A stretch of 64,000 nucleotides of DNA from Centroscyllium fabricii (Eukaryota), in assembly GCA_051313645.2 (NCBI GenBank), contig JBNRSN020000014.1, forward strand, positions 103,230,001 through 103,294,000. Direction: 5' to 3'. Below the pieces are notes generated by a model. The model was not told the DNA's origin. It did no database searches and saw only the letters and a list, made by a program, of their open reading frames with translations. Below are positions 4,401 to 49,024 of the stretch, one piece after another. Numbering within the stretch: position 1 is the stretch's first letter; every line of letters starts with the position of its first letter. Both the position numbers and the translations under genes were made by a program.

Positions 4401-4602
4401 AACTTTTGATTTACAATTGGGTAACAGAACTGAAACTGTAACAATAGTTACAGTGATAGCGGGCGAGACCACGGTCCCCGCACAACCACCTCAACGCGGT
4501 CGCCCTCCCGCAACAAAACCCGCCCACACTCCAACGCAGAACCAGAGACTACTAGCAACATGGTCCGGCCGCATCATCCGGCCACCCCAACGGCACACAT
4601 AG
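1435..4602 (+). pseudogene. pol: gag-end/pol polyprotein of Gypsy A (PR-RT-RH-INT), two in-frame stops
   Basis: ORFs 1525-3027, 3094-3492 and 3643-4602 share one frame; stops at 3025 (TGA) and 3490 (TAG). Confidence 0.9.
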
Positions 4603-4644: not shown

Positions 4645-4889
4645 TGTGGCGGTACACCCACGGGGATATCGAATCCGCCACGGGGACTCCGCGGAGCAAA
4701 GCTCCGCTCATCCGGGTGACGCGACTACGTCATCACGTCGCCCGACGCGATGACGTCACCAACCGCGGGACCGTTTAAATAAGCCTGTCCTGAGTGGTTC
4801 TGCCTCTTTCTTGTACTGTAGTTGATGATTAAAGCTGTGTTTTCTCTAAGCTCTGGCTCACGTGTGATCACTAGGCCTGAGGCGCTACA
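4645..4889 (+). repeat. 3' LTR of Gypsy A
   Basis: TGTGGCG...CGCTACA ends, preceded by G-rich PPT; internal TTTAAATA and ATTAAA. Confidence 0.8.
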
Positions 4890-7800
4890 ATGGTGCCAAA
4901 GGATGTGCAGGCCATATTAGGTTTAATAGCCTGTGAGAGACTGAACCTGGTAAAGAGAGTCCTCGTTGTGGAAAGCGAAGGAGAGACAGTCTATGATGAA
5001 CTCATGAAAGAGTACAATGACCTATTTCAGGGTCCAGGCTGCCTTCCAGGAGAACACACGATCAGAGTGGATAAAAATGTGCCACCGATAATACATCCAT
5101 GCAGAAAAGTTTTGTTTGCTCTTCAAAAGCAACTGAAGGCAGAGTTGGACAGGATGGAAAGCTTGAACATGATTCAGAAGATAGATTAGCCAACTGAGTG
5201 GGTGAGTTCCCTCGTCGTTGTGGACAAACAGAATGGAAAGCTCAGAATTTGCCTGGATCCAAGAGATCTAAACAGAGCAATAAAGAGAGAGCACTTCAAG
5301 CATCCGACATGTGAGGAAATCATGTCACAGTTTGCAAATGCAAAGTATTTCAGCAAGTTAGATGCATCATCAGGATTTTGGCAGTTGAAACTGGATGAAG
5401 CAAGTTCAAGACTGTGGATGTTCAATAGTCCATTTGGCAAATACAGATTCCTAAGGTTACCATTTGGTATTGCCTCAGCTCCTGAAGTGTATCATAAAAC
5501 TATCCACATGGACTATGAGCACCTGGAGGGAGTTAATACCTCCATGGATGACATCGTAGTATGGGGAACCACAAGAACTGAGCTTGACGAGAGACTGAAA
5601 AAGTGCTGGAAGCAACAAGGAAAACAAACCTGAAGCTGAATAGAGAGAAATGCCAGCTCGGGGTGACAGAACTGACATTTGTGGGAGATATCCTTAGCAG
5701 TGAGTGCATCAGACCAGATCCCAGAAAGGTGTCCGCCATTGGGAATATGCCAAGGCCACAATGCAAAAGGGACATGCAGAGGTTTAATGGAATGATCAAC
5801 TGCATGGGTAAATTCATATCCAACCTCTCAGAAAAGATGTCGCCACTGAGAAGACTAACTAAAAAGAACATAGAATGGGAGTGGAATCATGAGCATGAGA
5901 AGTCATGGAGCGAAGTAAAGAAACTGCTCACAGAGGAACCAGTTCTGAGGTTTTATGACCCAGCGAGACCCATCAAGATATCATCAGATGCATCACAGAG
6001 TGGGCTTGGGGCAGTTCTTCTGCAAAAATATGATGACTGGCAACCTATCGCATATGCATCGTGCTCAATGACCGACGCGGAAACGTGATATGCTCAAATA
6101 GAAAAGGAGCTGCTCAGCATCACATATGCCTGTGAAAGATTTCATCAGTTTGTGTCAGGACAAGCAATCAGTGTAGAGACTGACCATAAGCCCTTGATTG
6201 CATTGTTCAAAAAGCCATTAAATGTCTGTCCACTTAGAATACAAAGAATGATGATTAGGCTGCAACGTTATACACTGAATGTGGCGTACACTCCGGGTAA
6301 GCTGATGTACATAGCAGACACGTTGTCTCGAGCTGTTGACCCAAGAGAGCCCGCAAACACCAAAATGGATGAAGACGTGAATGCCTACGTGGACATGATC
6401 ACAAGTGCACTGCCCATAGCAGATGCAAAAATGGAGCTCATAAAGACTGAGACAAACAAAGATGAAACACTGAAACGACTGAGAAAAAACATCTTGGATG
6501 GATGGCCCAACATGAAGCAAGACTGCTCACCTGACATTGCAGAGTACTGGAACTGCACTGCTGCAGGGCGGAACTATCAGTGGTCGAAGACATCATCTAC
6601 AAAGGAAGTAAAATAGTTATCCCAAAGAGTCTGAGAAAAGACGTGCTAAAAAGGATCCATGGAGGACATCTGGGAATCAAAGTGTAAGAAAAGAGCACGA
6701 GAGGTGATGTACTGGCCAAGAATCAACCATGATGTGACAAATGAAGTGTCAAATTGCACAATATGCCAGAAATATCAAGCAAGCAATCCTGCAGAACCAC
6801 TAAAGCCACACCCAGAATCAGACAGACCTTACCGGAAGGTAGGCGCTGACCTATTTGTATGTCAAGGGAAGGACTATCTTGTAGTCACAGACTATTACTC
6901 CCTGTATCCAGAGGTGTGTAGACTGAACACCACCACTGCAGATGCTGTGATAACCTGTATGAAAGACATATTCTCCAGACATGGACTGGCAAGCGAGGTC
7001 TTCACAGACAATGGACCCCAGTTTTGCAATTCAAGTTTCCGACACTTTGCCAAAGAGTGGGACTTTTTCCCCACAACATCAAGTCCTCATTATCCGCAGT
7101 CCAATTGACTAGTGGAAAAATCGTTCCAGACAGTGAAAAGACTGATGTACAAGGCAAAAGACAGTGGAACTGACTTCTACCAGAGCATGCTAGTATACTG
7201 CACAACGCCGCTCGAGTGTGGCATGTCACGAGCCCAACTCCTTATCGGACGTAGGCTAAGATCAAACCGACCAATCCCGGAGAACCTCCTGAAAACAAAA
7301 GAGGGAGAGAAAGTGAGGAAGTTCAAAGAACAACAGAAACAAAAGCAAAAGTACTACTTTGACAGAGGAACAAAAAACCTACCTGAACTCCACCCTGGTG
7401 ACCAAGTAAGGCTCAAAGACAAAACTAACATATGGACTCAGAAGGGAACTGTCCTTAAGCAATCCAACCAAGATCATACACCATTCAGACAGATGAAGGT
7501 ACTGTTCTAGAAGAAATCGTCGAGATCTTCTAATGGGACCAGCCACAGCAGGCAGAAAGACTGATAATGTTGAACAACCTGATTACACAGCTGAGAAGAC
7601 ATCATCTGAGGCAACAACTCAGATTCAAGGACAATTAATCAGGAGATCGTCAAGACACGTAAAACCACCTGAGAGACTCATAGAGCAAATTTAAAGACTC
7701 TTGTTATAGAATGAAGTAGTGTTATCTTATTTGCTCTTCAAGCTCTAGTGTGTGTACATATTTCATGTGAACACACAAAACAAGGTTAAAAAATGTTAAT

Positions 7801-9456: not shown

Positions 9457-10962
9457 CTTCTTCTTAGGCAGACTCTCGGAACCGAGGATGACTTGCTTCC
9501 ACATTAGAAATGAGTATGCAGGTGACTGATGAGTCCAATGCAGGACCTGCAGTCTCTGTCACAGGTGGGGCAGACGGTGGTTGAAGGGGCGGGTGGGTGG
9601 GGTGCTTGGGTTGACATGTGTTCCTTGTGCTGCCTGCGCTTGGCTTCCGCTCGCTCCCAGCGAAGAGACTCGGTGTTCGGCGCCTTCCCGGATGCTTCTC
9701 CTCCACGTTGTGCGGTCTTGGGCCAGGGATTCCCAGGTGTCAGTGGGGATGTTACACTTTTTGAAGGAGGCTTTGAGGGTGTCCTTGAAGCGTTTCGTCT
9801 GCCCACGTGGGGCTCTCTTGCCGTGCCAGAGCTCCAAGTAGAGTGCTTGTTTTGGGAGTCTCGTATCAAGCATGCGGACAATGTGACCCATCCATCGGAG
9901 CTGATCGAGTGTGGTCAAAGCTTCGATGCTGGGGATGTTGGCCTGAGCCAGAACATGGATGATGGTGCACCTATCCTGCCAATGGATTGGCAGGATCTTG
10001 CGGAGGCAGCATTGGAGATACCTCTCCAGTGCTTTGAGGTGCCTGCTGTACATGGTCCATGTCTCTGAGGCATACAGCAGGGCAGGTATCACTGCTGCTC
10101 TGTAGACCATGAGCTTAGTGCCAGGTTTGAGGTCATGGTCTTCAAACACTCTCTTCCTCAGGTGACCGAAGGCTGCACTGGCACACTGAAGGCGGTGTTG
10201 GACTTCGTCGTCGACGTCTGCCCTTGTTGACATTAGGCTCCCGAGGCATGGAAAGTGGTCCATGTTGTCCAAGGCCTTGTCCTGGATTTTGATAATTGGG
10301 GGGCAGTACTGTGTGGTGGGGGTAGGTTGGTAGAGGACCTTTGTCTTACAGATGTTTAGTGTAAGGCCCATGCTCTCGTATGCTTCAGTGAAGGTGTTGA
10401 CGATGATTTGGCGTTCGACCTCCAAGTGAGCACAGACGCAAGCGTCGCCTGCATACTTTAATTAGACAACAGAAGATGGAACAATCTTGGATCTGGACTG
10501 GAGGTGACGGAGGTTGAACAGTTTCCTGTTTGTTCTGTGAATTAGCTCCAGAGGGGTGCTTACTGATGGTGAGATGGAGCATTGCAGCAATAAAGATCAT
10601 GAAGAGCGTTGGTGCGATGGCACAGCCTTGCTTGACCCCGGTTCGTATGTGAATTGGGTCTGTGGTGGAACTGTTGGTCAGGATCATGGCTTACATGTCA
10701 TCGTGAAGCAGGCGGAGGATGGTAAACCTTTGAGGGCAGCCGAATTTGAAGAGGACACTCCATAATCCCTCATGGTTGACAGTGTCGAAGGCTTTTGTGA
10801 GATCAAAGAAGGCCATGTACAGTGGTTGGTGCTGTTCCCTGCATTTCTCTTGTAATTGACGTGCGGTGAAGATCATGTCCACTGTGCCCCTTAGTGGGCG
10901 GAATCCGCATTGCGACTCTGGGAGGAGCTCTTTGGCCACTGGGAGAAGGCGATTGAGGAGGA
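9457..10962 (-). mobile_element. RTE-clade LINE, 5'-truncated
   Basis: LLPESQCGFR..FFDLTKAFDTV, GVKQGC; (AAG)n tail; 14-bp TSD TTCAAGAAGATTGT at 9443-9456 and 10963-10976. Confidence 0.9.
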
Positions 10963-11563: not shown

Positions 11564-14440
11564 AGGTGGATGAATTAGCAGTAGAAATAGAGGTAAACAA
11601 ATATGATCTAATTGGGATTACGGAAACATGGCTGCAGGATGGGCAAGGCTGGGAACTTAACATACAGGGGTATTCAATATTTAGGAAGGATCGACAAAAA
11701 AGAAAGGGAGGAGGGGTAGCATTGCTGGTAAAAGAGGGGATAAATGCAATTGAAAGGAAGGATATTAACTCGGTTAATACGGAATCTATATGGGTAGAAC
11801 TAAGAAATAGCAAGGGGCGGAAAACGTTAATAGGAGTGGTATATAGGCCTCCAAATAGTAATATGGAGGTAGGGGAGGGCATCAAAAGGGAAATTAGAGA
11901 AGCATGCAATAAGAGCTCAGCTGTCATCATAGGTGACTTTAACTTGCATATAGATTGGACTAGCCAAATTAGTAAAAATAACGAGGAGGAGGAATTCCTT
12001 GAGTGTTTAAGGGATGGTTATCTGGATCAATATGTCGAGGAACCAACTCGGGGTCAGGCTATCTTAGACTGGGTACTGTGCAATGAGAAGGGACTAATTA
12101 GTAATCTTGTTGTACGGGGACCCTTGGGTCAGAGCGATCATAACATGATCGAATTCTCACTCGAAATGGAGAGCGAAGAAACTGACTCAGAGACTAAGGT
12201 CCTGAATTTAAATAAGGGGAATTATGATGCCATGAGACGGGAATTAAGTAAGTCTGATTGGGCAGCGTTTCTGGGGGGACTGGCGGTGGATAAACAATGG
12301 CAAGCATTTAAAGACAGAATGGCAGAATTGCAGAAATTGTTTATACCAATCTGGCATAAAAAGAAATCTAAAAAGGTGACTCAACCGTGGATAACAGGGG
12401 AAATTAGGGACAGCATAAAATCCAAAGAAAGAGCATATAAAATAGCCAAAAAAAGCACCAGACCTGAAGATTGGGAACAGTTTAGGATACAACAAAGGAG
12501 GGCAAAGGGATTAATCAGGAGGGGAAAAATAGCGTACGAAAGTAAGCTTGCGGCAAACATAAAAACTAACTCCAAAAGCTTTTACAAGTATATTAAGAGG
12601 AAAAGACTGGTGAAATCCAAAGTCGGTCCATTACAGTCAGATTCTGGGGAATATATAATGGGAAATAAGGAAATGGCAGACCAATTAAATGCATATTTTG
12701 GGTCTGTCTTCACAAAGGAAGACACAAAAAACCTCCCTGAGATATCAGGAACCATAGGGACAATTGCAAGGGAGGAACTGACAAAAATCAATATCTCTAA
12801 GGATATGGTGTTGGGGAAGCTAAAGGGACTAAAGGCTGACAAATCCCCAGGGCCTGATAACATGCATCCTAGGGTACTCAAGGAGGTGGCCCTAGAGATA
12901 GCAGATGCGTTAAGGATAATTTTCCAGAATTCGATAGACTCGGGAACAGTGCCCATGGATTGGAGGGTAGCTAACGTTACCCCACTATTTAAAAAGGGGG
13001 GTAGGGAAAAAGCAGGCAATTACAGACCTGTAAGCCTTACATCGGTGGTGGGCAAAATACTAGAGTCCATCATTAAGGATGTAATAGCAGAGCACTTGGC
13101 AAATGGGGACAGGATAGGACAGAGTCAACATGGATTTACAAAAGGTAAATCGTGCTTGACGAATCTATTGGAATTCTTTGAGGAAGTAACTGGTAAAATA
13201 GATGGGGGAGAGCCAGTAGATGTGGTGTACCTGGACTTCCAAAAAGCCTTCGATAAGGTCCCACATAAAAGATTAGCATGTAAAATCAAGGCTCATGGGA
13301 TAAGGGGAAAAGTATTGACGTGGATAGAGAACTGGCTGGCAGATAGAAAACAGAGAGTTGGAATAAACGGCTCATTTTCTGAATGGCAGGCAGTAACAAG
13401 TGGGGTACCTCAGGGATCTGTCCTGGGTCCCCAGCTGTTCACAATTTATATTAATGACCTAGATCAGGGAATCGGATGCAGCATCTCCAAATTCGCAGAC
13501 GACACTAAACTAGGAGGGGGGGTAGGCTCAGAGGAGGGGATCAGGAAGCTCCAGAGCGATTTGGACAAATTGGGGGACTGGGCAGATACATGGCAAATGC
13601 ACTATAATGTGGACAAGTGTGAAGTTATCCACCTTGGGGGCAAAAATGGGAGGGCAAATTATTATTTAAATGGCAATAGATTGGGAGATGGGGAAGTACA
13701 GAGAGACCTGGGTGTTCTGGTGCACCAGTCATTGAAGGCGAGCATGCAGGTGCAACAGGCGGTCAGGAAGGCAAATGGTATGCTGGCCTTCATATCAAAA
13801 GGGTTAGAATACAGGAACAAGGACACCTTACTACAGCTGTACAGGGCACTGGTGAGACCACACCTCGAGTACTGTGTGCAGTTTTGGTCGCCTCATCTGA
13901 GGAAGGATGTTCTTGCCATGGAAGGAGTGCAGCGGCGATTCACCAGGCTGATACCAGGAATGGCAGGAATGACCTATGAGGAGAGACTATGTAGTTTGGG
14001 GATGTACACACTGGAGTTTAGAAGATTGAGAGGGGATCTCATAGAAACATATAAAATTCTGACAGGCCTGGACAGACTAGATGCAGAAGGAATGTTTCCG
14101 ATGGCAGGAGAGTACAGAACTAGGGGACACAGTTTAAGGATAAGGGCTAAACCATTTAGGACAGAGATGAGGAGGAATTTCTTCACCCAGAGAGTGGTGA
14201 ACCTGTGGAACTCACTACCACAGAGGGCAGTGGACGCCAGCTCATTGAATATATTTAAGAGGGAATTAGATATATTTCTGCAGGCAAAAGGGGTTAAAGG
14301 TTACGGAGAGAAGGCAGGGACGGGATACTGAACTGAAGGATCAGCCATGATCTCATTGGCGGAGCAGGCTCGAAGGGCCGAATGGCCTACTCCTGCTCCT
14401 ATCATCTATGTATCTATGTATCTATCTACGTATCTATGTA
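11564..14440 (+). mobile_element. Young CR1 LINE (HER1-like), truncated at the start of ORF2
   Basis: Open ORF2, conserved 3' UTR and (TCTATGTA)n tail. Confidence 0.95.
11566..14331 (+). CDS. CR1 ORF2: APE endonuclease plus reverse transcriptase (921 aa, N-terminus missing)
   Basis: ITETW, GDFN, SDHN; RT GVPQGSVLGP and FADD; no stops. Confidence 0.9.
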   Translation: MDELAVEIEVNKYDLIGITETWLQDGQGWELNIQGYSIFRKDRQKRKGGGVALLVKEGINAIERKDINSVNTESIWVELRNSKGRKTLIGVVYRPPNSNMEVGEGIKREIREACNKSSAVIIGDFNLHIDWTSQISKNNEEEEFLECLRDGYLDQYVEEPTRGQAILDWVLCNEKGLISNLVVRGPLGQSDHNMIEFSLEMESEETDSETKVLNLNKGNYDAMRRELSKSDWAAFLGGLAVDKQWQAFKDRMAELQKLFIPIWHKKKSKKVTQPWITGEIRDSIKSKERAYKIAKKSTRPEDWEQFRIQQRRAKGLIRRGKIAYESKLAANIKTNSKSFYKYIKRKRLVKSKVGPLQSDSGEYIMGNKEMADQLNAYFGSVFTKEDTKNLPEISGTIGTIAREELTKINISKDMVLGKLKGLKADKSPGPDNMHPRVLKEVALEIADALRIIFQNSIDSGTVPMDWRVANVTPLFKKGGREKAGNYRPVSLTSVVGKILESIIKDVIAEHLANGDRIGQSQHGFTKGKSCLTNLLEFFEEVTGKIDGGEPVDVVYLDFQKAFDKVPHKRLACKIKAHGIRGKVLTWIENWLADRKQRVGINGSFSEWQAVTSGVPQGSVLGPQLFTIYINDLDQGIGCSISKFADDTKLGGGVGSEEGIRKLQSDLDKLGDWADTWQMHYNVDKCEVIHLGGKNGRANYYLNGNRLGDGEVQRDLGVLVHQSLKASMQVQQAVRKANGMLAFISKGLEYRNKDTLLQLYRALVRPHLEYCVQFWSPHLRKDVLAMEGVQRRFTRLIPGMAGMTYEERLCSLGMYTLEFRRLRGDLIETYKILTGLDRLDAEGMFPMAGEYRTRGHSLRIRAKPFRTEMRRNFFTQRVVNLWNSLPQRAVDASSLNIFKRELDIFLQAKGVKGYGEKAGTGY

Positions 14441-14442
14441 AT

Positions 14443-14503
14443 TGTTATAGGGCCAATGTTATAGGGCCAATGTTATAGGGCCAATGTTATAGGGCCAATG
14501 TTA
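14443..14503. repeat. 14-bp tandem repeat next to the CR1 tail
   Basis: TGTTATAGGGCCAA, about 4.3 perfect copies. Confidence 0.9.
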
Positions 14504-15589: not shown

Positions 15590-15790
15590 CCTTAAAGAGA
15601 CCATGCCTACAATCATTTTGACAGTTGTGCTGTCTGTGTTTTGAAGCACTGAGGTGCTGCAAACACTGACAAGCACTGCACAAAGGTGCACAGCTGCACC
15701 CAGGCTCTCCCATGACTCCCTCCATATGCTTATGGAGGGAGTCACAGCACGCAGGGAGGTTCTCTTCCCTTCCCATAGGCAGAAGAACCT
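15590..15790 (+). mobile_element. Harbinger Myb/SANT-like ORF remnant
   Basis: APRLSHDSLHMLMEGVTARREVLFP; related segment at 17100-17225. Confidence 0.5.
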
Positions 15791-15967
15791 TTTAATGATT
15801 TCAGTAGATCACAAATCGTTACTGCCAAGCCACACGCAACCTCATCCTGCTGTGCCACTCATCACATCCCCATCACTCTGCCTTCATACCCTAGTCCTGC
15901 ACATCTTTACTCACACCAACTTACTTTGCACCTTCACCCATCCCATTTGATGACACATTATCGTGGA

Positions 15968-21509: not shown

Positions 21510-21993
21510 AGAGTACTGTGTGCAGTTTTGGTCACCTTATCTGAGGAAGGATGTTCTTGCCATGGAGGGAGTGCAGCGAAGATTCACCAGACTGATGCCT
21601 GGGGTGGCAGGAATGAGGAGAGATTGGGTCGATTGGGCTTATACTCGCTGGAGTTCAGAAGAATGAGAGGGGATCTCATTGAAACTTATAAAATTCTAAC
21701 AGAACTAGATAGACTAGGTGCAGAAAGGATGTTCCTGATGGTCGGGGAGTCCAGAACCAGGGGTTGCAGTCTAAGGATAAGGGGTAAGCCGTTTAGGACA
21801 GAGATGAGGAGGAATTTCTTCACCCAGAGAGTGGTGAACCTGTGGAATTCTCTACCACAGAAGGCCGTAGAACCCAATTCATCCAATCTCATGGTACTGA
21901 GATTGGATGATCAGCCATGATCTCATTGAATGGCGGAGCAGGCTCGAGGGGCTGAAGGGCCTACTCCTGCTCCTATCTTCTATGTTTCTATGT
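21510..21993 (+). mobile_element. CR1 3' fragment, (TCTATGTT)n subfamily
   Basis: RT end and tail. Confidence 0.9.
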
Positions 21994-23801: not shown

Positions 23802-25246
23802 TCCTCTTTTAAAAGAAAAATGTTATGCATTACCTTTAAACCTTTCTTCTACATCATGTTCTCGATAGCATAAACATGTAAGTAAACTCAGCATTTAACT
23901 TGCATTGAAAACATCTCAATGTTTCAATAAAGATATGCAGGTTTTTTTTTAGGGTAGCGATCCGCCTACACCCTTTAACATTTCCCAAGTCAAAGATAAC
24001 TCTAGGCTTGACCTCTCATCTCGACCCTGTGTGGTATGAAACTGAGCATGCTCCTGAATCGGTCAACAATTCAGGTTCAGGTAAGTATGATGTGTTTTGT
24101 GTATTGCTCTGTTCATCACACTCTGTTGAACTGATCCTCTCGTCGGAATGATGGTGTTGTTCCTTGGTGTTCAGGAGGTGCCTGCGATTGTGACGGTACA
24201 CCTGTCCTTCTGGGGTGCGGACGTGATATGATCGCTAAGTGTCAGCTGGCTGGATGAGGATTGCTGGTTTCCAGTAGTCATGCTCCTGGATTCTGACGGA
24301 TTCTCCATTATGCAGCGGCAGCAGTAGTCTAGCTGACCTGTCATAGTATCTCTTTTGGTATTGCTGTCTCTGTACATGTTTTGCATGCACTTGCTTGCAG
24401 CTGACGACCTCTGGCTGCAGCTGCTGGTTGGTGCTTGGAAGGATTGAGCGAAGTCTTCAGCTCATCAACAGCTGTGCTGGTGACTTGAATTTGTCAACCG
24501 GCGTGTTGCGGTACTCGAGGAGACTTATGTAGGGGACGCTTTTGTCTGTTTTGGCTTTGTCCATGAGTGTTTTTGCAATCTGGACAGTTTTTTCAGCAAG
24601 GCCAATACTTTGAGGGTAATGTGGGCTTGATGTGACATTTGTGAAATCCCATGCCTTGGCAAATGACTCGAACTCTTTTGATTTGTATTGGGGCCCATTG
24701 TCTGAGACTAAACTCTCTACCATGCCATGCCTGGCAAAGGCTGCCTTTAGCCTGTGGATCACAGCTGCAGATGTGGTGCTGTGAAGCTTGTCTAGTTCAA
24801 AAGATCTACTGTAGTAATCAACAGTCACTATGTAGTCCTCATTGTTCCATGTGAACAGATCCATTGCCGCGACCTGCCAGGGCTTGTCTGGGATACGGTG
24901 AGGTATCATGGGCTCTTTGACATTTGATGGGTGGCATTCTAGACAAATGGAACATTTTTCGACAATGTCCTCAATGTGTTTGCACATTCTAGGCCAAGAC
25001 ATAATGTCAGGTGCTCTTTGTTTGCATTTTTCCATGCCCATATGTCCAGCATGAATTTTTGTCAACATCTCTTCTCTGAAACTGTTAGGAATGATGATTT
25101 TCTCCCCTTTGAAGATGCTTCTGGTTTTTTTTATCCATTGATGGGATGTGGGCGTCGCTGGCTGGCTAGGCCTGCATTTAGTGCCCATCCCTAATTGCCC
25201 TTGAGAAGATGGTGGTGAGCCACCTTCTTGAACCGCTGCAGTCCAT

Positions 25247-25519
25247 ATAGAAACATAGAAACATAGAAGATAGGAGCAGGAGTAGGCCATTCGGCCCTTC
25301 GAGCCCACTCCGCCATTCAATGAGATCATGGCTGATCATCTAAACCCAGTACCCTGTCCCTGCCTTGTCCCCATATCCCTCGATCCCTATCGAGCCTGCA
25401 CCGACACATATCCCACCCTATCCCCGTAACCCTACATATTTAATCCCCCTAACACTAAGGGTCAATTTATCATGGCCAATCAACCTAACCCGCACATCTT
25501 TGGACCGTGGGAGGAAACC
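25247..25519 (-). mobile_element. HE1-like SINE 3' portion (5'-truncated) forming the 3' end of the METTL6 insert
   Basis: Near-identical to the 3' two-thirds of the SINE at 47264-47674; (TCTATGTT)n tail. Confidence 0.9.
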
Positions 25520-25795
25520 ATTCAATCAATGCTGCCCCGATTCAGCCTCTGGGAAGCCTCGACAGCAGCCCTGGAGCTCCTCTCCCCCTCAACTTTCCTT
25601 CACCCATGTGGAGACACACAGAACCTCTGTTCAGCAACCCTCATACAAGCAGCAGCACAGCCAAGATCTCCAACTCATCCCTAGCTCCTGCTGCAGATGT
25701 CCAAGACACCATTCACAGCACAGCTTTGGCACAGGGCTAGGAGTAGGTTACTCTGCCTGCTCTCTCTGCCACGGTACTACACACTGCAAGGCAAT

Positions 25796-26806
25796 CTAGA
25801 GATAAATGTCAAGACAGTATATCTTATTGTAAAAAAAAGAGCAGCAGTAACAGTTCAACAGGTTAAAATATTCTGTTTCTCTCTTTGACTTCTTAAACTT
25901 GCATTGAAGAAAAGCTCTTGGAACACACAGACCTTCTTTCTTATTAACAGTTTCACGGAACACATATTCATTGACCAGCACCTCATACCCAGCAGTCGTC
26001 AGGAGCTGTGCCATGTAGTCATCGGAAAAGAAGAAGGATCTTGTTCCGTCTTGCCGAACATAAACATTTGGTCCAAGCTTATGGCCAGTTTTAAATCGGA
26101 GCATGGTGTGATCATACAGTCCGTAATCTCTGAATAGGATACATCCACCCGGTTTCAGTATTTTATAGATATTTTCTAAGGCCAGCTGCATCTTGTCAGG
26201 ATGAATGGCAGAGAGCACAAAGATCAGTGTTACAACATCCACGGAGTCAGCTGGCACATGCTCCAGTAAATCGTCTTTTGTCAGGTCGCACTGAAAGGCC
26301 TTGCATCGCTCAGTGTTATACAGGCGGTTTTGCTTCACAAATTGTACAGCTCGGGGAGAGAAGTCACAAGCATAAATGAAGGCATTCAGATCGTCCTCTA
26401 ATAGAGGGAATAAACAGTTCCCAACTCCACAGCCAGCTTCCAAGACAATCAGTTTTTGATTCTCAAATTCTCGACATGCTTTCAGCTCTTCAAATTCCCT
26501 GGTTGTTCAATGCCTATCTTTGTAGAAGTTGGTGCTGTTCCTTTGGTAAAATAAATCCCAGTTCCTCTGCGCCTCTCTTTCGAGCTTCTGTTGTTTAAAA
26601 TCAGACACTAAGCTCCGATCTTTTACGAGTTTTTCTGCTTCTTCAGGGGTAAGAATCCTTCCCTTGTCCCCAGTCACTTGAAAAGGCGGTTCTGATCTGG
26701 AAGGTGTTACAGTTACTACCTTATTGCTTAAAGTACAATTGTTTACCCCTTCTGTTCGGCAGGTTTGGGTAGCACAAGAACCATTTGCTTCCATATCATC
26801 TCCCAT
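25796..26806 (-). pseudogene. METTL6: Processed pseudogene of tRNA m3C methyltransferase METTL6
   Basis: Intronless; KLEREAQRNWDLFY..KDRH*TTREFEEL, LEAGCGVGN, ACDFSPRA, FRDYGLYD, YVRQDGTRS; ORFs 26507-26806 and 25796-26443 are in frame across one TGA. Confidence 0.93.
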
Positions 26807-29800
26807 TGTGTTTGCAATATTCCAGATGGTTCAGCGTCCCGGCCCGGCCCGGCTCATGTAGGTACACCTATAATGTTGTTAGGAAGGGAGTTCCAGGATT
26901 TTGGCCCAGCGACAGTGAAGGAGCTGCGATACAGGTCCAAGTCAGGATGGTGTGGGGCTTGGAGGGGAACTTGTAGGTGGTGCTGTTCCCATGTGTCTGC
27001 TGCCCTTGTCCTTCTAAGTGGTAGAGGTCGCGGGTTTGGAAGGTGCTGTTGAAGGAGCTTTGGCGAGTTGCTGCAGTGCATCTTGTAGATGGTACACACT
27101 GCAGCCACAGTGCGCCGGTGGTGGAGGGAGTGAATGTTGAAGGTGGTGGATGGGGTGCCAATCAAGCGACCTGCTTTATCCTGAATGGTGTCGAGCTTCT
27201 TGAGTGTTGTTGGAGCTGCACTCATCCAGGCAAGTGGAGAGTATTCCATCACACTCCTGACTTGTGCCTTGTAGATGGTGGAAAGACTTCGGGGAGTCAG
27301 GAGGTGAGACACTCGCCGCAGAATTCCCAGCCTCTGGCCTGCTCTTGTAGCCACAGTATTTATATGGCTGGTCCAGTTCAGTTTCTGATCAATGGTAACC
27401 CCCAGGATGTTGATAGTGGGGGATTCAGCGATGATAATGCCACTGAATGTCAAGACGAGATGGTTAGAGTCTCGCTTGTTGGAGATGGACATTGCCTGGC
27501 ACTTGTATGGTGCGAATGTTACTTGCCACTTGTCAGCCCAAGTCTGAATGTTGTCCAGGTCTTGCTGCATATGGACACGGACTGTTGATTTGTGACGGTT
27601 TGTCTCTGTGGTTCCAGAATTTAAATATGCCCTGAGGGCATTTCTTCCTTTCCTCAGACCATCCTTCATGTATGACTTTGCTCAGTAGTGTGAGTAGTGC
27701 ATCTTTTTCTGTTCCTGCTCGGATCTCCTTCAGTTTTGCGTCACTCACAGGTCCGCCGTTGTACACGATGTGCACCTGCACATCCATGCCTTCACTGAGG
27801 CTGCTGTCCTGGTAGCTAAGAGACTTTCTGGAGTGCGTGTCTGTGACAGGAATGTCTTTGCCTGGACAGTGAATGATTGTGAAGTCGTACTTCTGTAGCT
27901 GAGGTATCATTTTCTGAAGACTTGGTGGGGCTGCGGCTAGTGGTTTCCTCATGATTGACTCGAGGGGCTTGTGGTCAGATTCCACAATGACTTGTCGGCC
28001 ATAGACATACTGGTGGAAACGCTTACACCCAATCAGAATTGCATATAGCTTTTTCTTGATTTGAGCATAGTTGATTTCACTGTCTGTGAGAGATCTGGAA
28101 GAGTAGCCGATGGGCTTTCCTTCTTGCAGTAATACTGTGCCTAGTCCGTACTTTGACGCGTCCACTTGTAAACTGAGCTCTTTGTTGGGGTCGAAGTAGG
28201 CAAGAACTGGTCCTGGTTCTCTGGTGATTAGGTCTTTCATTTTCTGAAATGCTGTGTCATGTTTGTCCCACAGGAACTCATTGGATTGTTTGAGCAACTG
28301 ACGCATGGGTGCGTTGATTTTGGAGAGGCTCGGGGCAAACTTGGCTAAGTAGTTAACCATGCCTAGTACTGTCTCTAGCTCTGCATGGTTCTTCGGTGGC
28401 TCCCTCTTCTTGATGGCGGAGATTTTCTCTGGATCCGGCTTAATGCCATCAGTTGAGAGGCAATGCCCAAAATAACTGATCTCAGTGGATCTGATTATGT
28501 CTTTCTCAGGGTTGAGCTAGATGCCTTTCTCCCGTGATCTTTGTAGCATCACACAGAGGTTCCTATCATGTTCCTCTCTATTCCTGCCATAGATGAGGAT
28601 GCCATCTACGATTGTGACTACTCCCTCGAGGCCTTCATATGTTTCATCGATCTTCCGCTGGAATTCATCCTGAGCTGAGGTAAGACCAAATGGTAAACGC
28701 AGAATTCGGCAGTGTCCAAATGGTGTGTTGAATGTTGTTAGCTTAGATGACTCATCCGTGAGCTTGATAATCCAGTATCCTGATCGTGCGTCCATTACAC
28801 TGAAGTAACGTGCTCGCACTAGCTTGGGTGTGATGTCATCTAGAATTACTAGAGGGTAGTGAGGGCATTTGATAGCCTTGTTCAAATCTCTGGGGTCGAG
28901 ACAGACTCTGAGCTTGCCTGTACATAGTTTTTCAACCACTACTACCGTGCTGACCCACTCTGTCGATTCTGTTTCCCGGACGATGATTTCTGCATTTTCC
29001 ATGCTCTGCAGCTCCTCCTTCAGACGACTACATAGAACAAGGGGTATCCTTCTTGGTGGGCAAACCACAGGGGCTGCTGTTGAGTCAAGGTGACTAGTGC
29101 ATTCACCTGGGAATAGTCCGATTCCTTTGAAACATCAGCAAACTCCTCCATGACTGTCTGCTTCTCAACTGGTGCTGTCAATTATAGCACTAGCTTGATG
29201 AGGTCCATGTCTAAACATGCCTTTAGACCTAGCACTGGAGGTGCTTGAGTGTCAACAATGTATAAGTCCAATATCATGTCATTTTCTTTGTACTTGCATT
29301 TCAACACGCATGTGGCTTTTACAATGAGCTGCTCACCCCCATAGCTGGTTAGTCTGCATGAGGTGGGCTGTAGCTCACACTCATCCTTCAAGCTGTGATA
29401 CTCACTCAGAGGAATTACATCAACCTGAGCACCAGTGTCTAGTTTAAACTTAAGCTTTGTGCCCTGATTTCCTATCTCAATATCTGCAAAGGCTTGCTCA
29501 GTCTCTGAAATCTGTTTTTTTCTGTGACACAGAATCAATAAACAGTTCCTCTGCATTTGGCTCTCTATCTGGCATTTGGCTGTCACTCACTGTGTGTACT
29601 GCTTTTCCAAAAATAGTCCTGCAAACTTTCGCAAAGTGGTTCCGATTACCACATTTAGCACATAGCCTTCCTTTGGCAGGGCATTTCTCCTTTTCCCCAT
29701 GCACCTTGTTTCCACAATATCCACAGTTTTTGAAGTGTTTTATGACTGTGTCACTCATTTTTAGAACTCTCTCTGTTCTTTCTGTTCTGAAATACGCTCT

Positions 29801-30432
29801 CTGTGTGGTGTTCTTTGGTGTATGTCTATTAACTGCGTGCACTGTCTGTTCACACGAGCTACTCATGGCGCCGGTTATGGTTTTCAACTGTGCTTGGGCT
29901 ATCTCGTGCGATCTCGCTATGTCCATAGCTTTGTCCAGCATTGGCCCGGACCCAACATTCAAATGTTTCTCTCTCACTTGAGCTGAATGTATTCCAAACA
30001 CGATGCAGTCTCTGACCATTTCATCTTTATCTGCATATTCACAGTCTTTTCCCAGCAGTTTTAACTCAGTCACAAACTATTCAAACGACTCACTAGCTTC
30101 TTGTACTTTCTCCTGAAACTTGTACCTAGTGAATATCGTATTTGTCTTGGGCATCATATATGATTCAAAATGGTCAAAATAACTTTTCAGTACCTTTGCT
30201 TCATCCGCGGTGAGAGACCATGTGTTAAAAATGTCTCTCACTTTTTCTCCGATCCACAGGAATAGGCAGTTGCATCTTTCATCCTCCCCTTTGCTTTTCA
30301 GCGGACCCGAGAACATCAACTCCATGTGTTGCTTGAACTTGCGCCATTCTCCAGTTAAGTACAATGATTCCCAATCCTTTTGTGACAAGGGAGATTCAGC
30401 GATGTCTATTTTCAATCTCTTTTTTGACACCA

Positions 30433-30713
30433 TGTCTTGTTTTGCACACTTTGTACAAAAATAATAAATTGCAGGACAACGTAGGATTACAGTTTAACTC
30501 TTTTATTCAGAAGTAGGTCTGTGATCTTACTCCTCGCAGCACCACTGGGGAAAGCATGGTATTAGGACCCCTATCCTGGGTCTTCAAAACAATAGCAGTC
30601 CTTACAGATGCCTGCAGGCCAATGACAACTCAGCATGTGATCACATGTGAATATAATAGGTATTCCTTACAAATGCCTGCGGGCCAATGATAATTCAATG
30701 TGCAAATGTTACA
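30433..30713 (-). repeat. 5' LTR of Gypsy C
   Basis: Direct repeat of 23521-23801; followed on the minus strand by the PBS. Confidence 0.95.
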
Positions 30714-31304: not shown

Positions 31305-31655
31305 GCAAATGTTGCTCGCAATAAGGAGCTCCTGGGTTCAAATCGTGCTTGGCCCGGGACCTCTCTGCGTGGAGTTTGCATGTTCTCCCCGTGTTCATGT
31401 GGGTTTTCTCCGGGTACTCCGGTTTCCTCCCACCACCCAAAGACATGCAGATTAGGTGAATTGGAGATACTAAAATTTGCCCATGAGTATGTGTGTGAAA
31501 TATAGTTCTTAGAGTTGGGGGTGTCGGGGGATATGGGGAGAGGGTAGGAGGGGGATGCTGGGTTTGGATGGTCAGCCATGATCTCATCAAAAATGGCAGA
31601 GCAGGCTCGAAGGGCCGAATGGCCAACTCCTGCTCCTATCTCCTGTGTTTCTGTG
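31305..31655 (+). mobile_element. Diverged HE1-like V-SINE
   Basis: B-box, V core and CR1 tail. Confidence 0.8.
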
Positions 31656-32959: not shown

Positions 32960-35160
32960 TGGAGTTGATTTTAAAATACAGACCGAAATGGGTGAAAGCT
33001 GGGCAGGAGGTCTACTTAGTGTGGCCGAACTGCTAACATGAGGCACGCACCATTTTGAGGTATATGATTCATTACAAAGCCCGTGTTGCAAACAAAATGT
33101 CTGCTGCCAGAGCCTTGGACATGTTGATGCGAGGAGCTAAACAGGAGGAAGCTGTTATTCCTCTCTAATGGGCATAGAGTGCCCTGTCAAATAGTCCAGC
33201 AACAATGGACAGAGGTAGTAGAGCTCATGAATGCCAGGTATCTGATACCACAGACCTGGCACCAAGATAAGAAGAAATTCAAAAACCTGACCACAGGTGC
33301 TAAGGTTAGCTTTCCAGCATTTTGTTTCATCTCACAATGTTGGAGGCTGGGTAGTGGAAGTTGGGTACTTTAGGTGTAATTTTCCTACTTTGGATAAGGG
33401 AGTTCCAGATTTCTACCACACTTTGTCTGAAAAAGTGCTTCCTAATTATGCTCCGATATGGTCTAGCTCTAATTTTAAGATTGTGCCCTCTCATTCTGAA
33501 TTCTCCACTAGAAGAAAAAGTTGTTTAAAATTTATTCATGGAATGTGGGCATTGCTGGCGAGGCCAACATTTATTGCCCATCACTTATTGCCCATGAGAA
33601 GGTGGTGGTGAGCTGCCTTCTTGAACTGCTGCAGTCCGTGTGGTGAAGGTACTCCTACAGTGCTGTTAGGGAGGGAGTTCAAGGATTTTGACCCAGCGAC
33701 GCTGAAGGATCGGCGATATACTTCCAAGCCAGGATGGTGTGTGAGTTGGGCCTTGCTCTTCCTTGTCATCCTCTGTTTCTTCCAGTTCTTCATGCTTCTC
33801 GACCTCCATATCTTCCTGTGCAGGTAGCTCGATGGGTTGGTCCCTTTGCATGGCAAAGTTGTGGAGCACAACTGCAATCCTGGAGATGCTCTGGGGGCTG
33901 TGGTGCAGGATGCCTGCAGATCTATCCAGGCAGCGGAATCATTGCTTGATGATGCCATGGTTTGCTCTACCAGAGCTCTGGAAGAGTTATGATTTTGATT
34001 ATATCTCATTTTGGCATCTGCACTTGGGTTCCTGACAGATGCCATGAGCCACGCCGACAGGAGATACCCCTTGTCTGCATAGCCAGCCTCTGACCTGATG
34101 GTCTGGATGAAAGAGAGGAGGACTGAGGAGTAGTGCAGGATGATGACATCATGACCGTTAAACCTGCATAATGCACTGCATGACTTCACACACCAGCTGT
34201 ATGTTCAGTGAGTGGAAGCCCTTCCTGTTGACAGATACTCCAGGGTCTTCTGTTGGAACACGCAAGGCTATATGTGTGCAGTTGATGATTCACTATCCCT
34301 GGTAGAAGTATGCCATCTGCCTGTCTTCCTGCTTTGTGGCCGCCATAGGGAAGGAGATGACGTCATTGACTCTGGTGAAGAGCACATCCTTCGCTTGCTT
34401 GATGCATGCATGCACAGCAGATTGACTAATGTTGCTAATGGCACCTGCTAAGGCCTGACATGATCCCAAGGCACATAAATTCAGGGCCACAATTACTGTC
34501 CGAACAGCCAAGGATGAGTGTGTCCTGGTGCTGGGCTGCAGTTGGTGCTGCAGTAGGTGACATCGCTCTGTGGCAGCCTCCCAAGTGAAACAGAGCCTCC
34601 TCACACACTGCTCCTTGCTGAACTGCAGGTTTGAAGAGGGAGATTTTAAATGTCAGTGTGTTTCCAGCAGGAAGCCGCTGGTTTCCGTAATATGTAGCAG
34701 GCCCATTTCCCGTCCATTCCAAGCTGAGCGGGAAATGGGTGGGAAGTGGCTGCCAGCCTGCAGAAATTCGGACGGCCATTGGCTGCTTGCATTTAGGTAA
34801 TTTTGGGGACCAGGGTTCTGTTGGGGGTCGCAGGGGGTGGGGGTGAGATGGAGTCCAGGGCAAAGGAGGCTTAAACCTTGCTTGTAGGACCTACAGGAGC
34901 ACACCTACTCCTGATGGTCCCACAAACAAAAGTAAAACACCTATCTAGAATGGCTTCTTCTGCTCCAAACCTTTGCTCACTTAATTGTACCTGGCGGGAA
35001 AGCTGCCACGGTTTCCCCACTCAGGTGGGAGATAAAATCACAGTCGGACTCGATGGCGTATCCGGATACCAATCTGCATATGTAAAGAAGGACCATCTGC
35101 TCAGCAGAGCAGGTTAAGGTTGAAGACTGTGGGAGTCAGATGGGACATCGGCAGGTAAGC
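32960..35160. mobile_element. Degenerate autonomous-type PIF/Harbinger remnant
   Basis: Plus strand Myb-like QQQWTEVVELMNA..QTWHQDKKKFKNLT (33100-33305); minus strand DDE transposase pieces (ISQSAVH, DKGY, RALVEQT, LHNFAM) at 33745-34650; edges approximate. Confidence 0.75.
33535..33745 (-). mobile_element. LINE family B 3' end
   Basis: Matches the other family B tails. Confidence 0.8.
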
Positions 35161-37416: not shown

Positions 37417-38153
37417 TGTCGAAGCCTCGACTCCCGAGTAAGACTCTTTTAGACAAAGTATCGTCAAAGATAGGCTTTATTATTTTACTTGCAGCAAGGG
37501 GAGGGCATGTAGTCAATGGCTACGCTGACCACTCCAAAGAATAAGCGAAATGTTACATATTTATACACAAAAAGAGCAGGCATTCTATATCACATGACAT
37601 GGTACTGAACCATAATTAAAAATAGAGTTTGCAAAATAACTAAAAGAACTTATTCAAGGATTCGTTAAAGGTTCGAACAGAAATACCTTAAGATAAGACT
37701 GGCTAATCCTTTGTTATGGGATCTTTCTGTTTTTCCTAAAAGTACCGTTTGGAGTTAGGGCTGATGTTTATTTACACATGTCCTTGGCTATGAGACTCCT
37801 TGGTCCTTTGTACATTCTAAGCTTATCTACTGATTGGGAACTCTCTATTAAGAACATAAGAACATAAGAAATAGGAGCAGGAGTAGGCCAATCGGCCCCT
37901 CGAGCCTGCTCCGCCATTCAACAAGATCATGGCTGATCTGATCCCAACCTCAATTTTATTTTAACTTTCCATCCCACCCAAACACATTCTTGAATTGTCT
38001 CCTCTCTATTCTGCATTCTTGAATTGTCTCGTCCTTGTTTTAAACTGCGAAAAACTAGTAAGCTAATTAGGTGCATCATGGTATAGGCCATTTTGAGTCT
38101 TATACTGTGTCCAGAAAGCCATTTTGTGTTCATATAAAAAATATACTTCCACA
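37417..38153 (-). mobile_element. ERV-like 3' LTR with PPT, containing a CR1 tail insert (about 37850-37985)
   Basis: Minus strand AAAAATGGGGGAA|TGTGGAAG...CTTCGACA; TATAAAT then AATAAA. Confidence 0.65.
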
Positions 38154-40917: not shown

Positions 40918-42361
40918 CAGGGTGACACAAAAATAAAAAAAATTCACTTGCCCAATCGGGCAAGTGGATTTCTAAAACACTTGCCCGAACACAAATTTCA
41001 CTTGCCCAAAATTTTTAAAGAAATAAATAAAGATTTTACATTTTTATTAAAATGCTTCAATATAAAACCATAGATTGTGATTGTGCCTTTAGTTGCATTG
41101 GCCTGGTTTCAGCCCCTCTCTGCCAGGGTCTCTCTCTCTACTCTGAACATTCTTCCCTCATTTACCAAACTTTCTGTGAAGCCTCCGCAGGTCGCGGACT
41201 CCCTCACTCTCTTGCCCTGCCTAATTCGTCCAGCAGCTGCTTTGGTTTTTACTCTCCCCCTCAGCGGGTCGACAGCACCGACCCACTCTTCCCGCGTGCC
41301 ACCAGCCCGCTCTACCTAACCCGACTGCTGCCCCGTCCCCTGATTGACACGCCACCTCCTCCAATTCCTGCCGCGCCACCTGGCCCTCCCAGCCAATACG
41401 CACCCGCTTCCAGGGCAGGATCCACCCACCCATGCCCGTGGCCTCGATCATCAAGCGGGCAAGCGGTTTTGTCGTGCCCTGGACTGTCCCTTGATTCGGT
41501 CTCTGGGTTTCAGCATCCCTGGATTCAGTCTCTGGGTGTCAGTGTCCCTAGATTCGGTCTCTGGGTGCCAGTGTCCCTGGATTCGGTCTCTGGGTGCCAG
41601 TGTCCCTGGATTCGGTTTCTGGGTGCCAGTGTCCCTGGATTCAGTCTCTGGGTGCCAGTGTCCCTGGATTCAGTCTCTGGGTGCCAGTGTCCCTGGATTC
41701 GGTCTCTGGGTGCTAGTGTCCCTGGATTTGGTCTATGGGTGCCAGTGTCCCTGGATTCAGTTTCTGGGTGACAGTGTCCCTGGATTCAGTTTCTGGGTGA
41801 CAGTGTCCCTGGATTCGGTCTCTGGGTGCCAGTGTCCCTGGATTTGGTCTCTGGGTGTCAGTGTCCCTGAATTCGGCGGACTGGTGACCTGTACCCCTAA
41901 TGGGATATGCATCAGAGCTCTGTCGACCACGGACAAGCCCCACCCCCCGGGACACACACTGGAAAAGTTGCCACTCTGCTCGCACTGCGGCCACGTGACA
42001 TGGGCTTGGCTCCGTAAGTTCAAAGGTTCCCCTCTGCCACGGACGCAGTGAAGTGAGCTGAGGTGTTGCAGCGCCGAGCGGCGGGTGGCCGGCTGGATCA
42101 AGTTATGATTGGCCGAGCAGGGGCGGGGCGCAGCGCAGCACGAGAAAACTGCTGGGCTGTGATCGACCGAGCTCGGGCGGGGCAGAGTTTAAAATCAATC
42201 GGCCGAGGCGCGTCCGCCTCCAGGGCGGGATCCACCCACCTGTTCCCACGGCCTCACTCATCGATGTGATCGGACTTGCCCGGTCGGGCAAGTAAGATTT
42301 TCATTTACTTGCCCGGTGGCGCATTTTACCTGCCCCGGGCAAGCAGTTTTGTCACGCCCTG
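40918..42361. mobile_element. hAT-like non-autonomous element with 5-bp TSD
   Basis: TIRs CAGGGTGACACAAAA / TTTTGTCACGCCCTG; subterminal ACTTGCCC repeats; GGTTG on both sides. Confidence 0.7.
41483..41875. repeat. 29-bp minisatellite
   Basis: GTGTCCCTGGATTCGGTCTCTGGGTGCCA, about 13 copies. Confidence 0.95.
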
Positions 42362-47180: not shown

Positions 47181-47263
47181 TCTTTGTCTGCATTGTGCCC
47201 CCTGCAGTGGGGCTTTGAACCACAACTGTCTGGCTCAGCAGTCTGAGTCAGGTTGGAAAGGAA

Positions 47264-47674
47264 CACAGAAACATAGAAACAAAGAAGATAGGAGCAGGAG
47301 TAGGCCATTCGGCCCTTCGAGTCTGCTCCGCCATTCAATGAGATCATGGCTGATCATCCAAACCCAGTACCCCATCCCTGCCTTGTCCCCATATCCCTCG
47401 ATCCCTATCGAGCCTGCACCGACACATATTCCACCCTATCCCCGTAACCCCACATATTTAATCCCCCTAACACTAAGGGTCAATTTATCATGGCCAATCA
47501 ACCTAACCCGCACATCTTTGGACTGTGGGAGGAAACCGGAGCACCCGGAGGAAACCCACGCAGACACGGGGAGAATGTGCAAACTCCACACAGATAGTAG
47601 CCGAGGCTGGATTTGAACCCGGGTCTCTAGTGCTGTAAGGCAACAGTGCTAACCACTATGCCACCGTGCTGCCC
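47264..47674 (-). mobile_element. Full-length HE1-like V-SINE
   Basis: tRNA head with A/B boxes (TGGCATAGTGG, GGTTCAAATCC), V core and CR1 tail. Confidence 0.9.
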
Positions 47675-48052: not shown

Positions 48053-48408
48053 AAGAGAAGTTGATTTAAAGAACGCACATATGGAAGGACTTCTTACAAA
48101 AACTCAGCACCCACGGACCAGTTGAACCAAGAACACTCCTTGCCACGATGGACATCTCGGCACTCTACACCAGTATCCCCCACGATGACGGCATTGCTGC
48201 AACAACTTCAGTACTCAACACCAACAACAGCCAATCTCCAGACATCATCCTACAACTCATCCGCTTCATCCTTGACCACAATGTTTTCACCTTCGACAAC
48301 AATTTTTTTACCCAAACACACGGAACAGCCATGGGGACCAAATTCGCACCCCAACACGCCAACATCTTCAGCCCTTCCATATGTGCTTTCTTTAAATCAA
48401 CTTCTCTT

Positions 48409-48445
48409 TCACCTGAGGAAGGAGAAGCGCTCCGAAAGCTTGTGA
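48409..48445 (+). ncRNA. Minimal hammerhead ribozyme motif
   Basis: UCAC-CUGAGGA-A-GGAG/CUCC stem-GAAA-GC-UU-GUGA. Confidence 0.7.
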
Positions 48446-49024
48446 TTTAAAATAAAACTTGGACTATAACCTGGTGTTGTGTGACTTCTTGCATTTGCCC
48501 ACCCCAGTCCAACACCGGCACCTACACATCACAGTTATATAAAGCTCTGGTTGGACCATATATTGAAGACTGCATTCAATTCTGGGCACCGCAACTCTGG
48601 AATGATATACTGGCCTTGGAGGGGATGCAGTGCAGATTCACCGGAATGATACCGGGGCCAAAAGGGTTAAATGTATTACTCTCCTGAGAGCGTGGGTAGA
48701 ATTGTAGAAGTTTGCTGTGTCTGACAAAACTTTGCCATAACTTGGGGGGTCTCGACTTCAACATCCTGGGAGAGTAACTGATACAGCGAGAAGATCCTGC
48801 GATGCGGGAGCCGGAACAGAAGGGCACAGCACATGCGCAGAAGCCAAGCGTTCTACAGGGCTGTCAGACAAGAACTGGTGGCACAGTCTTTCACCCAATG
48901 TGCTCCCCCATCCCCCCACATCAGACCTCCTCAGCAGAAGTTGAAAGCAGAAGGTGACCCAGGCTCAGATCTCATCAAATTCAAATAAGATTATTGCAAA
49001 TTGTTAACAACAAATAGACCATTT

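What the first reader, a model, noticed from the sequence alone, without database searches (positions are those of the whole stretch)
25247..26857. METTL6 mRNA retrocopy ending in a SINE/CR1 tail: probable CR1-driven gene retroposition through a SINE-mRNA chimera
Seen: on the minus strand the insert reads GC-rich leader, intronless METTL6 CDS, about 275 bp of presumed 3' UTR, then a 5'-truncated HE1-like SINE ending in (TCTATGTT)n. There is no poly(A) and no TSD. The host LINE rejoins across the whole block with only about 4 bp lost relative to copies at 22830 and 33630, so mRNA and SINE appear to have arrived together. Established: CR1 LINEs recognise their own 3' tail and usually leave no clear TSD, whereas classic retrocopies are L1/poly(A) products. 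Inference: either RT began on SINE RNA and switched template to the mRNA, or the parental 3' UTR carries a SINE that licenses mobilisation. Either would be an L1-independent route to gene duplication.
Basis: partly seen in the sequence, partly recalled or inferred. Interest (0 to 1): 0.85.

Follow-up and report, generated by a model that had tools for sequence, protein, structure and literature searches.

The report
Shark gene copy with SINE tail
A dead, intron-free copy of the tRNA-methylase gene METTL6 in a shark genome ends in the tail of a small jumping element instead of poly(A), which suggests that a CR1 retrotransposon, thought to copy only its own RNA, duplicated a host gene by way of that tail.

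Summary
The anatomy is real. On the minus strand, 26856-25247 holds a short GC-rich leader, a gapless 313-codon METTL6 copy (90% identical to sawshark METTL6), 343 nt of 3' sequence, and the last 273 nt of a tRNA-SINE whose tail is shared with CR1 LINEs in the window. There is no poly(A). An older LINE rejoins across the block with 4 bp missing. Gene and SINE have decayed alike (1.7% and 2.2%), so one CR1-primed insertion is the likely origin (about 0.85-0.9). Whether the join arose by template switching (0.5) or the SINE already lay in the parent's transcript (0.35) cannot be settled: no shark genome was reachable. The route is less new than claimed. snRNA-SINE chimeras of stringent LINEs, CR1-flanked chicken retrocopies, and a correlation between CR1/Tx1 content and retrocopy number are in print. 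Ten searches found no described full-CDS mRNA ending in a CR1-SINE tail. Verdict: a clean single example of a new variant; interest 0.5.

The parts
26857..27584 (-). 5' part of the interrupted host LINE (end of ORF2 and start of 3' UTR; a second LINE family, only 23% identical to the CR1 ORF2 over 172 aa; clade not determined)
26831..26856 (-). GC-rich leader with (CCGGG)x3; inferred end of a non-coding first exon
   Evidence: 4 CpG in 27 nt, o/e 1.04; orthologue isoforms P0002 and P0003 differ upstream and begin to match at 26830
26807..26830 (-). 5' UTR just before the ATG, conserved in longer isoforms of two other sharks
25868..26806 (-). Intronless METTL6 coding copy, 313 codons, premature TGA at 26509-26507 (invariant Trp100)
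25790..25867 (-). Displaced native stop (25865-25863) and AT-rich proximal 3' UTR (32% GC) with a U-run and a variant hexamer AATAAG at 25828
25520..25789 (-). G-rich 270-nt segment (54% GC) of unknown origin: distal UTR, read-through flank or a third template
   Evidence: no match in the window or in protein sets
25247..25519 (-). tRNA-SINE lacking its first ~137 nt (the whole tRNA-like head); last ~140 nt homologous to CR1 3' ends; ends in an 8-bp repeat (25268-25247)
25127..25246 (-). 3' remainder of the host LINE; resumes 4 nt after the left flank stops
24457..25120 (-). Gypsy-type LTR element (integrase part) into which the host LINE inserted; its RT/RNase H part lies at 27590-30493
11566..14437 (+). 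CR1 LINE copy with a 921-aa open endonuclease-RT frame and the same tail: the kind of element inferred to have supplied the enzyme
47260..47674 (-). Full-length copy of the same SINE, the closest of 4 (3.7% different over 271 nt; 2 shared diagnostic bases)

Best explanation
This is a processed pseudogene made in one target-primed reverse transcription event by a CR1-clade ORF2 protein. The enzyme bound the CR1-derived tail of a SINE RNA and primed at its 8-bp repeats on a nick in an old LINE. It copied about 270 nt, then most likely switched to a spliced METTL6 mRNA at a point short of its poly(A), and copied it almost to the 5' end. The cDNA was joined with loss of 4 bp of target. The copy then decayed neutrally. 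Shown: the anatomy, the rejoined flank, the tail homology, the decay. Inferred: a single event and the CR1 enzyme (about 0.85-0.9), and the template switch rather than a resident SINE (about 0.5 overall).
For: Insert ends coincide with the mRNA 5' end and the SINE 3' repeat, with 4 nt of host missing. A sense tail ending within 10 bp of a fixed point has a chance of about 0.1% at the window's density of 14 other tails in 64 kb. No poly(A), and the target site is not the A-rich L1 type (sequence; L1 consensus recalled). The tail matches the 3' ends of 5 of 5 LINE copies aligned; their ORF2's best-scoring relatives are mostly bird and turtle RT proteins at about 50% identity, i.e. CR1 by established knowledge. 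Ages agree: 7 private changes in 415 nonsynonymous sites (1.7%, CI 0.7-3.5) against 6 of 267 in the SINE (2.2%, after removing 2 bases shared with the 47k copy); Fisher p=0.58. For the switch: this is the only deeply truncated copy among the 5 young SINE copies; 3 are full length and 1 lacks about 16 nt. L2 and RTE LINEs form U6 pseudogenes only as chimeras, including with the SINEs Mon-1 and AnolisSINE2; the platypus ones have TSDs of 1-9 bp or none (PMC4476161).
Against: The parental locus was not seen. No bases are shared 5' of the UTR/SINE breakpoint, so no microhomology is shown; the 3' side cannot be checked. A jump onto the mRNA's 3' end would have left poly(A) at the join, so an internal or deadenylated landing must be assumed. 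The 270 nt before the SINE do not look like the AT-rich UTR and follow a possible poly(A) site, which suits read-through. The age test has little power. The tail folds into local hairpins but no better than shuffles (z=-0.98, 28 of 200 as good). One locus only: no second retrocopy was found among 135 frames scanned.
Confidence: 0.5

Rival explanations
1. Licensing, or 5' transduction: a truncated sense SINE already sat in the METTL6 3' UTR or just past its poly(A) site. A spliced transcript containing it was bound by CR1 ORF2 like any SINE RNA, and reverse transcription began internally at the 8-bp repeats. Still one CR1-driven event, with no switch.
For: Explains the lack of poly(A) and of microhomology with no extra step. 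GC jumps from about 30% to about 55% near 25800, just after a U-run, an AATAAG variant hexamer at 25828 and before a GU-rich stretch, which resembles a poly(A) site read through (inference). Stringent LINE proteins recognise the tail RNA (PMC4176376). 3'UTR Alus are over-represented in parents of primate pseudogenes (PMC5199112 abstract).
Against: Needs a deeply truncated SINE where 0 of 4 other young copies are, and one no older than the retrocopy. AATAAG occurs 3 times in the insert, so it may be chance.
Confidence: 0.35
2. Two events: an ordinary poly(A)-primed L1 or Tx1 retrocopy came first; a SINE later inserted in its 3' end and a deletion removed the remaining UTR, poly(A) and right TSD. 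Or the SINE came first and the retrocopy landed at its 5' edge.
For: Retrocopies are common in cartilaginous fishes (14,081) and tails are dense, so a 0.1% coincidence could occur about once per thousand retrocopies. L1 has been argued to make retrocopies in non-mammals (PMC4641402).
Against: The deletion must stop within 4 bp of the first insertion site and also take the SINE head. No poly(A) remnant and no A-rich target. Ages match.
Confidence: 0.1
3. Second-hand or triple chimera: the G-rich 270 nt come from a third source, either the flank of an earlier METTL6 retrocopy that was transcribed through to a SINE, or a second template switch.
For: Sharp change of composition near 25800; triple chimeras are reported (PMC4476161).
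Against: No poly(A) at that boundary; the segment has no match in the window or in protein sets.
Confidence: 0.05

Closest known systems
U6-L2, U6-Mon-1 and U6-AnolisSINE2 template-switch chimeras (Doucet et al. 2015, PMC4476161; passages and Conclusion read)
   Same: Cellular RNA at the 5' side, short piece of a stringent LINE or its SINE at the 3' side, repeat-ended tail, TSD short or absent.
   Different: The cargo here is a 1.3-kb spliced mRNA with the whole CDS, and the partner is CR1. Their one U6-CR1 case (turkey) was unresolved.
CR1-flanked chicken retrocopies (Tan et al. 2016, PMC5131818, Supplemental Table 8, read)
   Same: mRNA copies joined to CR1 sequence, no poly(A) or TSD listed, scored 'non-LTR' (6 of 21 chicken rows).
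   Different: All are 5'- and 3'-truncated (166-1873 bp spans), joined to the LINE rather than a SINE, 5 of 6 marked 5' side (the table note was cut, so the sense of that mark is uncertain); not discussed in the main-text passages seen.
L1-made chimeric retrogenes (Buzdin et al.; seen only as cited in PMC4476161 and PMC4494074; mRNA-Alu cases recalled)
   Same: Two RNAs fused in one insertion, 3' partner 5'-truncated.
   Different: Those end in poly(A) with L1-type TSDs.
3'UTR-embedded Alu as facilitator of processed pseudogenes (PMC5199112, abstract) and SVA/L1 5' transduction (recalled)
   Same: A SINE inside a transcript helps it to be retroposed.
   Different: L1 and poly(A) dependent; here reverse transcription starts at the SINE's own repeat.
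HE1 V-SINE / HER1 LINE pair of sharks and rays (table row in PMC3747384; PMC4824008 passages)
   Same: tRNA-headed shark SINE sharing its tail with a CR1-clade LINE.
   Different: Identity to the HE1 consensus was not testable; the name rests on recall and on this architecture.
Classic L1 processed pseudogene
   Same: Intronless, decayed, dispersed copy.
   Different: No poly(A), no long TSD, target not A-rich.

Membership tests
Processed pseudogene of METTL6 | Orthology to METTL6 | tested here: met
   Top hits named METTL6 of sharks, 93% over 217 aa; short branch among sharks
Processed pseudogene of METTL6 | No introns across the CDS | tested here: met
   One HSP per orthologue for 8 of 8; 6 of 8 with no gap
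Processed pseudogene of METTL6 | Parent has introns at another locus | not testable with these tools
   No shark genome reachable; isoform names X1-X6 and recalled human gene structure point to a spliced parent
Processed pseudogene of METTL6 | Disabling mutations | tested here: met
   TGA at invariant Trp100; 7 of 176 invariant residues changed
L1-type retrocopy | 3' poly(A) | tested here: not met
   Longest A-run 2-3 nt at the junctions
L1-type retrocopy | TSD of about 7-20 bp at an A-rich cut site | tested here: not met
   Longest shared word 4 nt and out of register; ATG (3 nt) in register; 4 bp of target lost
CR1-mobilised insertion | 3' end homologous to a resident CR1 LINE | tested here: met
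CR1-mobilised insertion | Ends in an octamer repeat (PMC4316615) | tested here: met
   Period 8, 2.8 copies, 25247-25268
CR1-mobilised insertion | Hairpin in the tail | tested here: inconclusive
   Hairpins predicted, z=-0.98
CR1-mobilised insertion | Mobilised by CR1 ORF2 in an assay | not testable with these tools
   Bench test
HE1 V-SINE | tRNA-like head with A and B boxes in full copies, LINE tail | tested here: inconclusive
   Box-like motifs seen by eye in 3 full copies (motifs recalled); ARAGORN and Rfam found nothing
HE1 V-SINE | Match to the HE1 consensus and V-domain | not testable with these tools
   No consensus found as text
Template-switch chimera | Both parts inside one insertion site | tested here: met
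   Host LINE rejoins around both
Template-switch chimera | Parts not adjacent at the parental locus | not testable with these tools
   Parent locus unavailable; indirect protein searches empty

The most novel reading that the evidence does not exclude
In sharks, where CR1 and its SINE are dense, sense tails in 3' UTRs or read-through transcripts (or frequent switching from SINE RNA) routinely hand mRNAs to the CR1 enzyme. A large share of the 14,081 retrocopies counted in cartilaginous fishes would then end in CR1/SINE tails, making a 'stringent' LINE a main engine of gene retroduplication, with parent choice set by tail content rather than poly(A).
Probability: 0.2. Interest if true: 0.75.

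Novelty: new variant of a known kind. Interest (0 to 1): 0.5.

Why it matters
Reviews hold that CR1 recognises only its own tail and so makes few retrocopies (PMC5470649), while a 2026 survey credits CR1/Tx1 with non-mammalian retrocopies on correlation alone in the main text seen. This locus is a junction-level example of how the two can be reconciled, and it gives a simple genome-wide test: what do shark retrocopies end in? The copy itself is a dead pseudogene with no likely function.

Tried and rejected
Finding the parent's 3' region indirectly: one antisense frame of the G-rich segment searched by words (3 candidates, none significant) and another by phmmer (3 hits, all repetitive proteins with no sign of homology); 2 of 6 frames tried. 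blastn and tblastx of the segment against the window: nothing convincing (best tblastx E=0.006 over 19 aa). Cluster membership of the shark orthologues could not be queried, so the species' own METTL6 protein was not identified. Rfam and ARAGORN: nothing in the window. Pfam on 135 frames of 62 aa or more in the stretches I chose as unexplained: 1 weak DDE transposase hit, no second retrocopy; shorter or Pfam-free copies would be missed. Splicing into the SINE was rejected: no AG acceptor precedes the breakpoint in full copies. A functional retrogene was rejected (stop at Trp100). DNA-level duplication or misassembly was rejected: the ends follow RNA ends and the host rejoins. Suh 2015 and Ichiyanagi and Okada 2008 were not held. 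The bacterial, phage and plasmid collections were not searched as they cannot hold the parent.

Full report
Setting. The window is repeat-dense shark DNA: CR1 LINEs, a second LINE family, Gypsy elements and SINEs. The locus is nested three deep on the minus strand: a Gypsy-type element (RNase H and integrase domains) is split by a LINE, which is split by the insert.

The gene copy. The frame at 26806-25868 aligns in one piece to 8 of 8 chondrichthyan METTL6 proteins, 6 of them without a gap; Pristiophorus is 89.8% and Heptranchias 87.5% identical. The best database hits are named METTL6, and the copy sits on a short branch among sharks, unresolved with those two species. It is not intact: Trp100 is TGA, and where those two orthologues stop after E-Y-x the copy's TAA is one base out of frame. 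It differs at 7 of 176 residues invariant in the orthologues, or 1.7% of 415 nonsynonymous sites (95% CI 0.7-3.5%). Longer isoforms of two sharks start to match at 26830 and differ from each other upstream, so the 26-nt CpG-rich leader is probably a spliced first exon (inference). That the parent has introns is taken from isoform names and recall; it was not seen.

The 3' segment. From the native stop to the SINE is 343 nt. The first 78 nt are 32% GC and the next 270 nt are 54% GC and G-rich. There is no AATAAA in the insert; an AATAAG lies at 25828, one of 3. The G-rich part has no match in the window, and two of its six frames found no real protein relative. Its origin is open.

The SINE. 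25519-25247 is 88-96% identical to four other copies. Three are full length, one lacks about 16 nt, and this one lacks about 137 nt, the whole tRNA-like head. Its last 140 nt align with the 3' ends of 5 LINE copies. One of these has a 921-aa endonuclease-RT frame whose best-scoring relatives are mostly bird and turtle proteins near 50% identity; bird LINEs are CR1 by established knowledge. The tail ends in an 8-bp repeat, the CR1 hallmark described in PMC4316615 (passages). Predicted hairpins are no more stable than shuffles (z=-0.98). The copy has 8 differences from the majority in 267 sites, 2 shared with the 47k copy, leaving 6 private (2.2%); the other four copies have 6-11. This matches the gene copy's decay (Fisher p=0.58), with little power.

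Junctions. Three other copies of the host LINE agree across the site; the locus keeps the left side to 26857, resumes at 25246 and lacks 4 nt. No A-run over 3 nt lies near any junction. ATG occurs at both ends, so a 3-bp duplication or tail-target microhomology is possible. No base is shared 5' of the UTR/SINE breakpoint. With 14 other tails in 64 kb, a sense tail ending within 10 bp of a given point has a chance near 0.1%. Across a thousand retrocopies that could happen once, but a two-step history must also remove the poly(A), the right TSD and the SINE head while sparing the flank. I give it 0.1.

Mechanism. The simplest history is one target-primed reverse transcription by CR1 ORF2 starting on the SINE tail (0.85-0.9). 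Two routes lead there. Template switching (0.5) explains the mid-SINE truncation and the equal ages, and has direct precedent: L2 and RTE LINEs make U6 pseudogenes only as chimeras, including with their SINEs (PMC4476161, passages and Conclusion). It needs an internal or deadenylated landing on the mRNA. Licensing by a SINE resident in the UTR or read-through flank (0.35) needs no switch and fits the change of composition after a possible poly(A) site; tail recognition by stringent LINE proteins is shown in PMC4176376 (passages). A third-source origin of the G-rich part gets 0.05. These weights are judgement, not computation.

What is known. CR1 is described as limited to RNAs with its own tail (PMC5470649, passages; Suh 2015 not held). 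Against that, Supplemental Table 8 of PMC5131818 lists 6 of 21 young chicken retrocopies next to CR1, with no poly(A) or TSD, scored non-LTR; all are truncated at both ends and 5 carry a 5' mark whose definition was cut from view (supplement file 1 was not searchable). The main-text passages seen do not discuss them. A 2026 preprint counts 14,081 retrocopies in cartilaginous fishes and says CR1 or Tx1 sustain retroduplication outside mammals, from correlation (10.64898/2026.06.26.734816, passages and section 5); its Supplementary Note 1 was closed and may bear on this. The companion VGP preprint (passages) adds no mechanism. 3'UTR Alus facilitate primate pseudogenes (PMC5199112, abstract). The coelacanth study favours L1 (PMC4641402, passages). 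SINE heads gained by chimera formation are described in PMC7245038 and PMC4494074 (passages). Ten full-text searches showed no report of a whole-CDS mRNA copy ending in a CR1-partner SINE tail, or of retrocopy 3' ends in sharks; I saw most listed papers only as listings, and subscription journals are largely missing.

Verdict. It works like a stringent-LINE chimera carrying an mRNA in place of an snRNA; membership in the template-switch class cannot be closed without the parent locus. It is a new variant of a known kind. One locus cannot show a general route, but it names the test. Interest 0.5.

Noticed in passing
window 11566-14437 (+): CR1 copy with an open 921-aa endonuclease-RT frame, slightly 5'-truncated, so a young family; followed at 14443-14503 by a perfect 14-bp tandem repeat (4.4 copies) right after its tail.
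   Followed up: partly
window 37853-37949 (-) and 63593-63688 (+): Two elements with a CR1-like tail but a different shared upstream sequence: probably a second SINE or LINE subfamily.
   Followed up: no
window 21893-21993 (+): A 100-nt tail, 93% identical to the young SINE, joined to unrelated upstream sequence.
   Followed up: no
window 31331-31655 (+): Older relative of the SINE, 71% identical to the 47k copy.
   Followed up: no
window 61133-61530 (-): SINE copy lacking about 16 nt at the 5' end, with CTAG at both junctions: a possible 4-bp TSD.
   Followed up: no
window 41485-41876: 29-bp minisatellite, 13.5 copies, 91% matches.
   Followed up: no
window 618-712 and 812-859: 21-bp (4.5 copies) and 17-bp (2.8 copies) tandem repeats just before a Gypsy element.
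   Followed up: no
window 1420-4602 (+), 4881-7510 (+), 24457-30493 (-): Three Gypsy-type LTR retrotransposon remnants; the first has long open protease-RT-integrase frames.
   Followed up: partly
window 9559-10690 (-), 48070-48450 (+), 33752-34652 (-), 15645-15950 (+): Frames that look, from recall, like an RTE LINE, a Penelope RT, a Harbinger transposase (weak DDE_Tnp_4 hit) and its Myb-like partner. I recognised no L1 frame among the 117 listed, but did not test this.
   Followed up: partly
window 25305-25304 region of the SINE tail (alignment columns 215-216): Two adjacent private changes (CA to TG) fall in a predicted stem that still pairs in the fold; probably chance.
   Followed up: no
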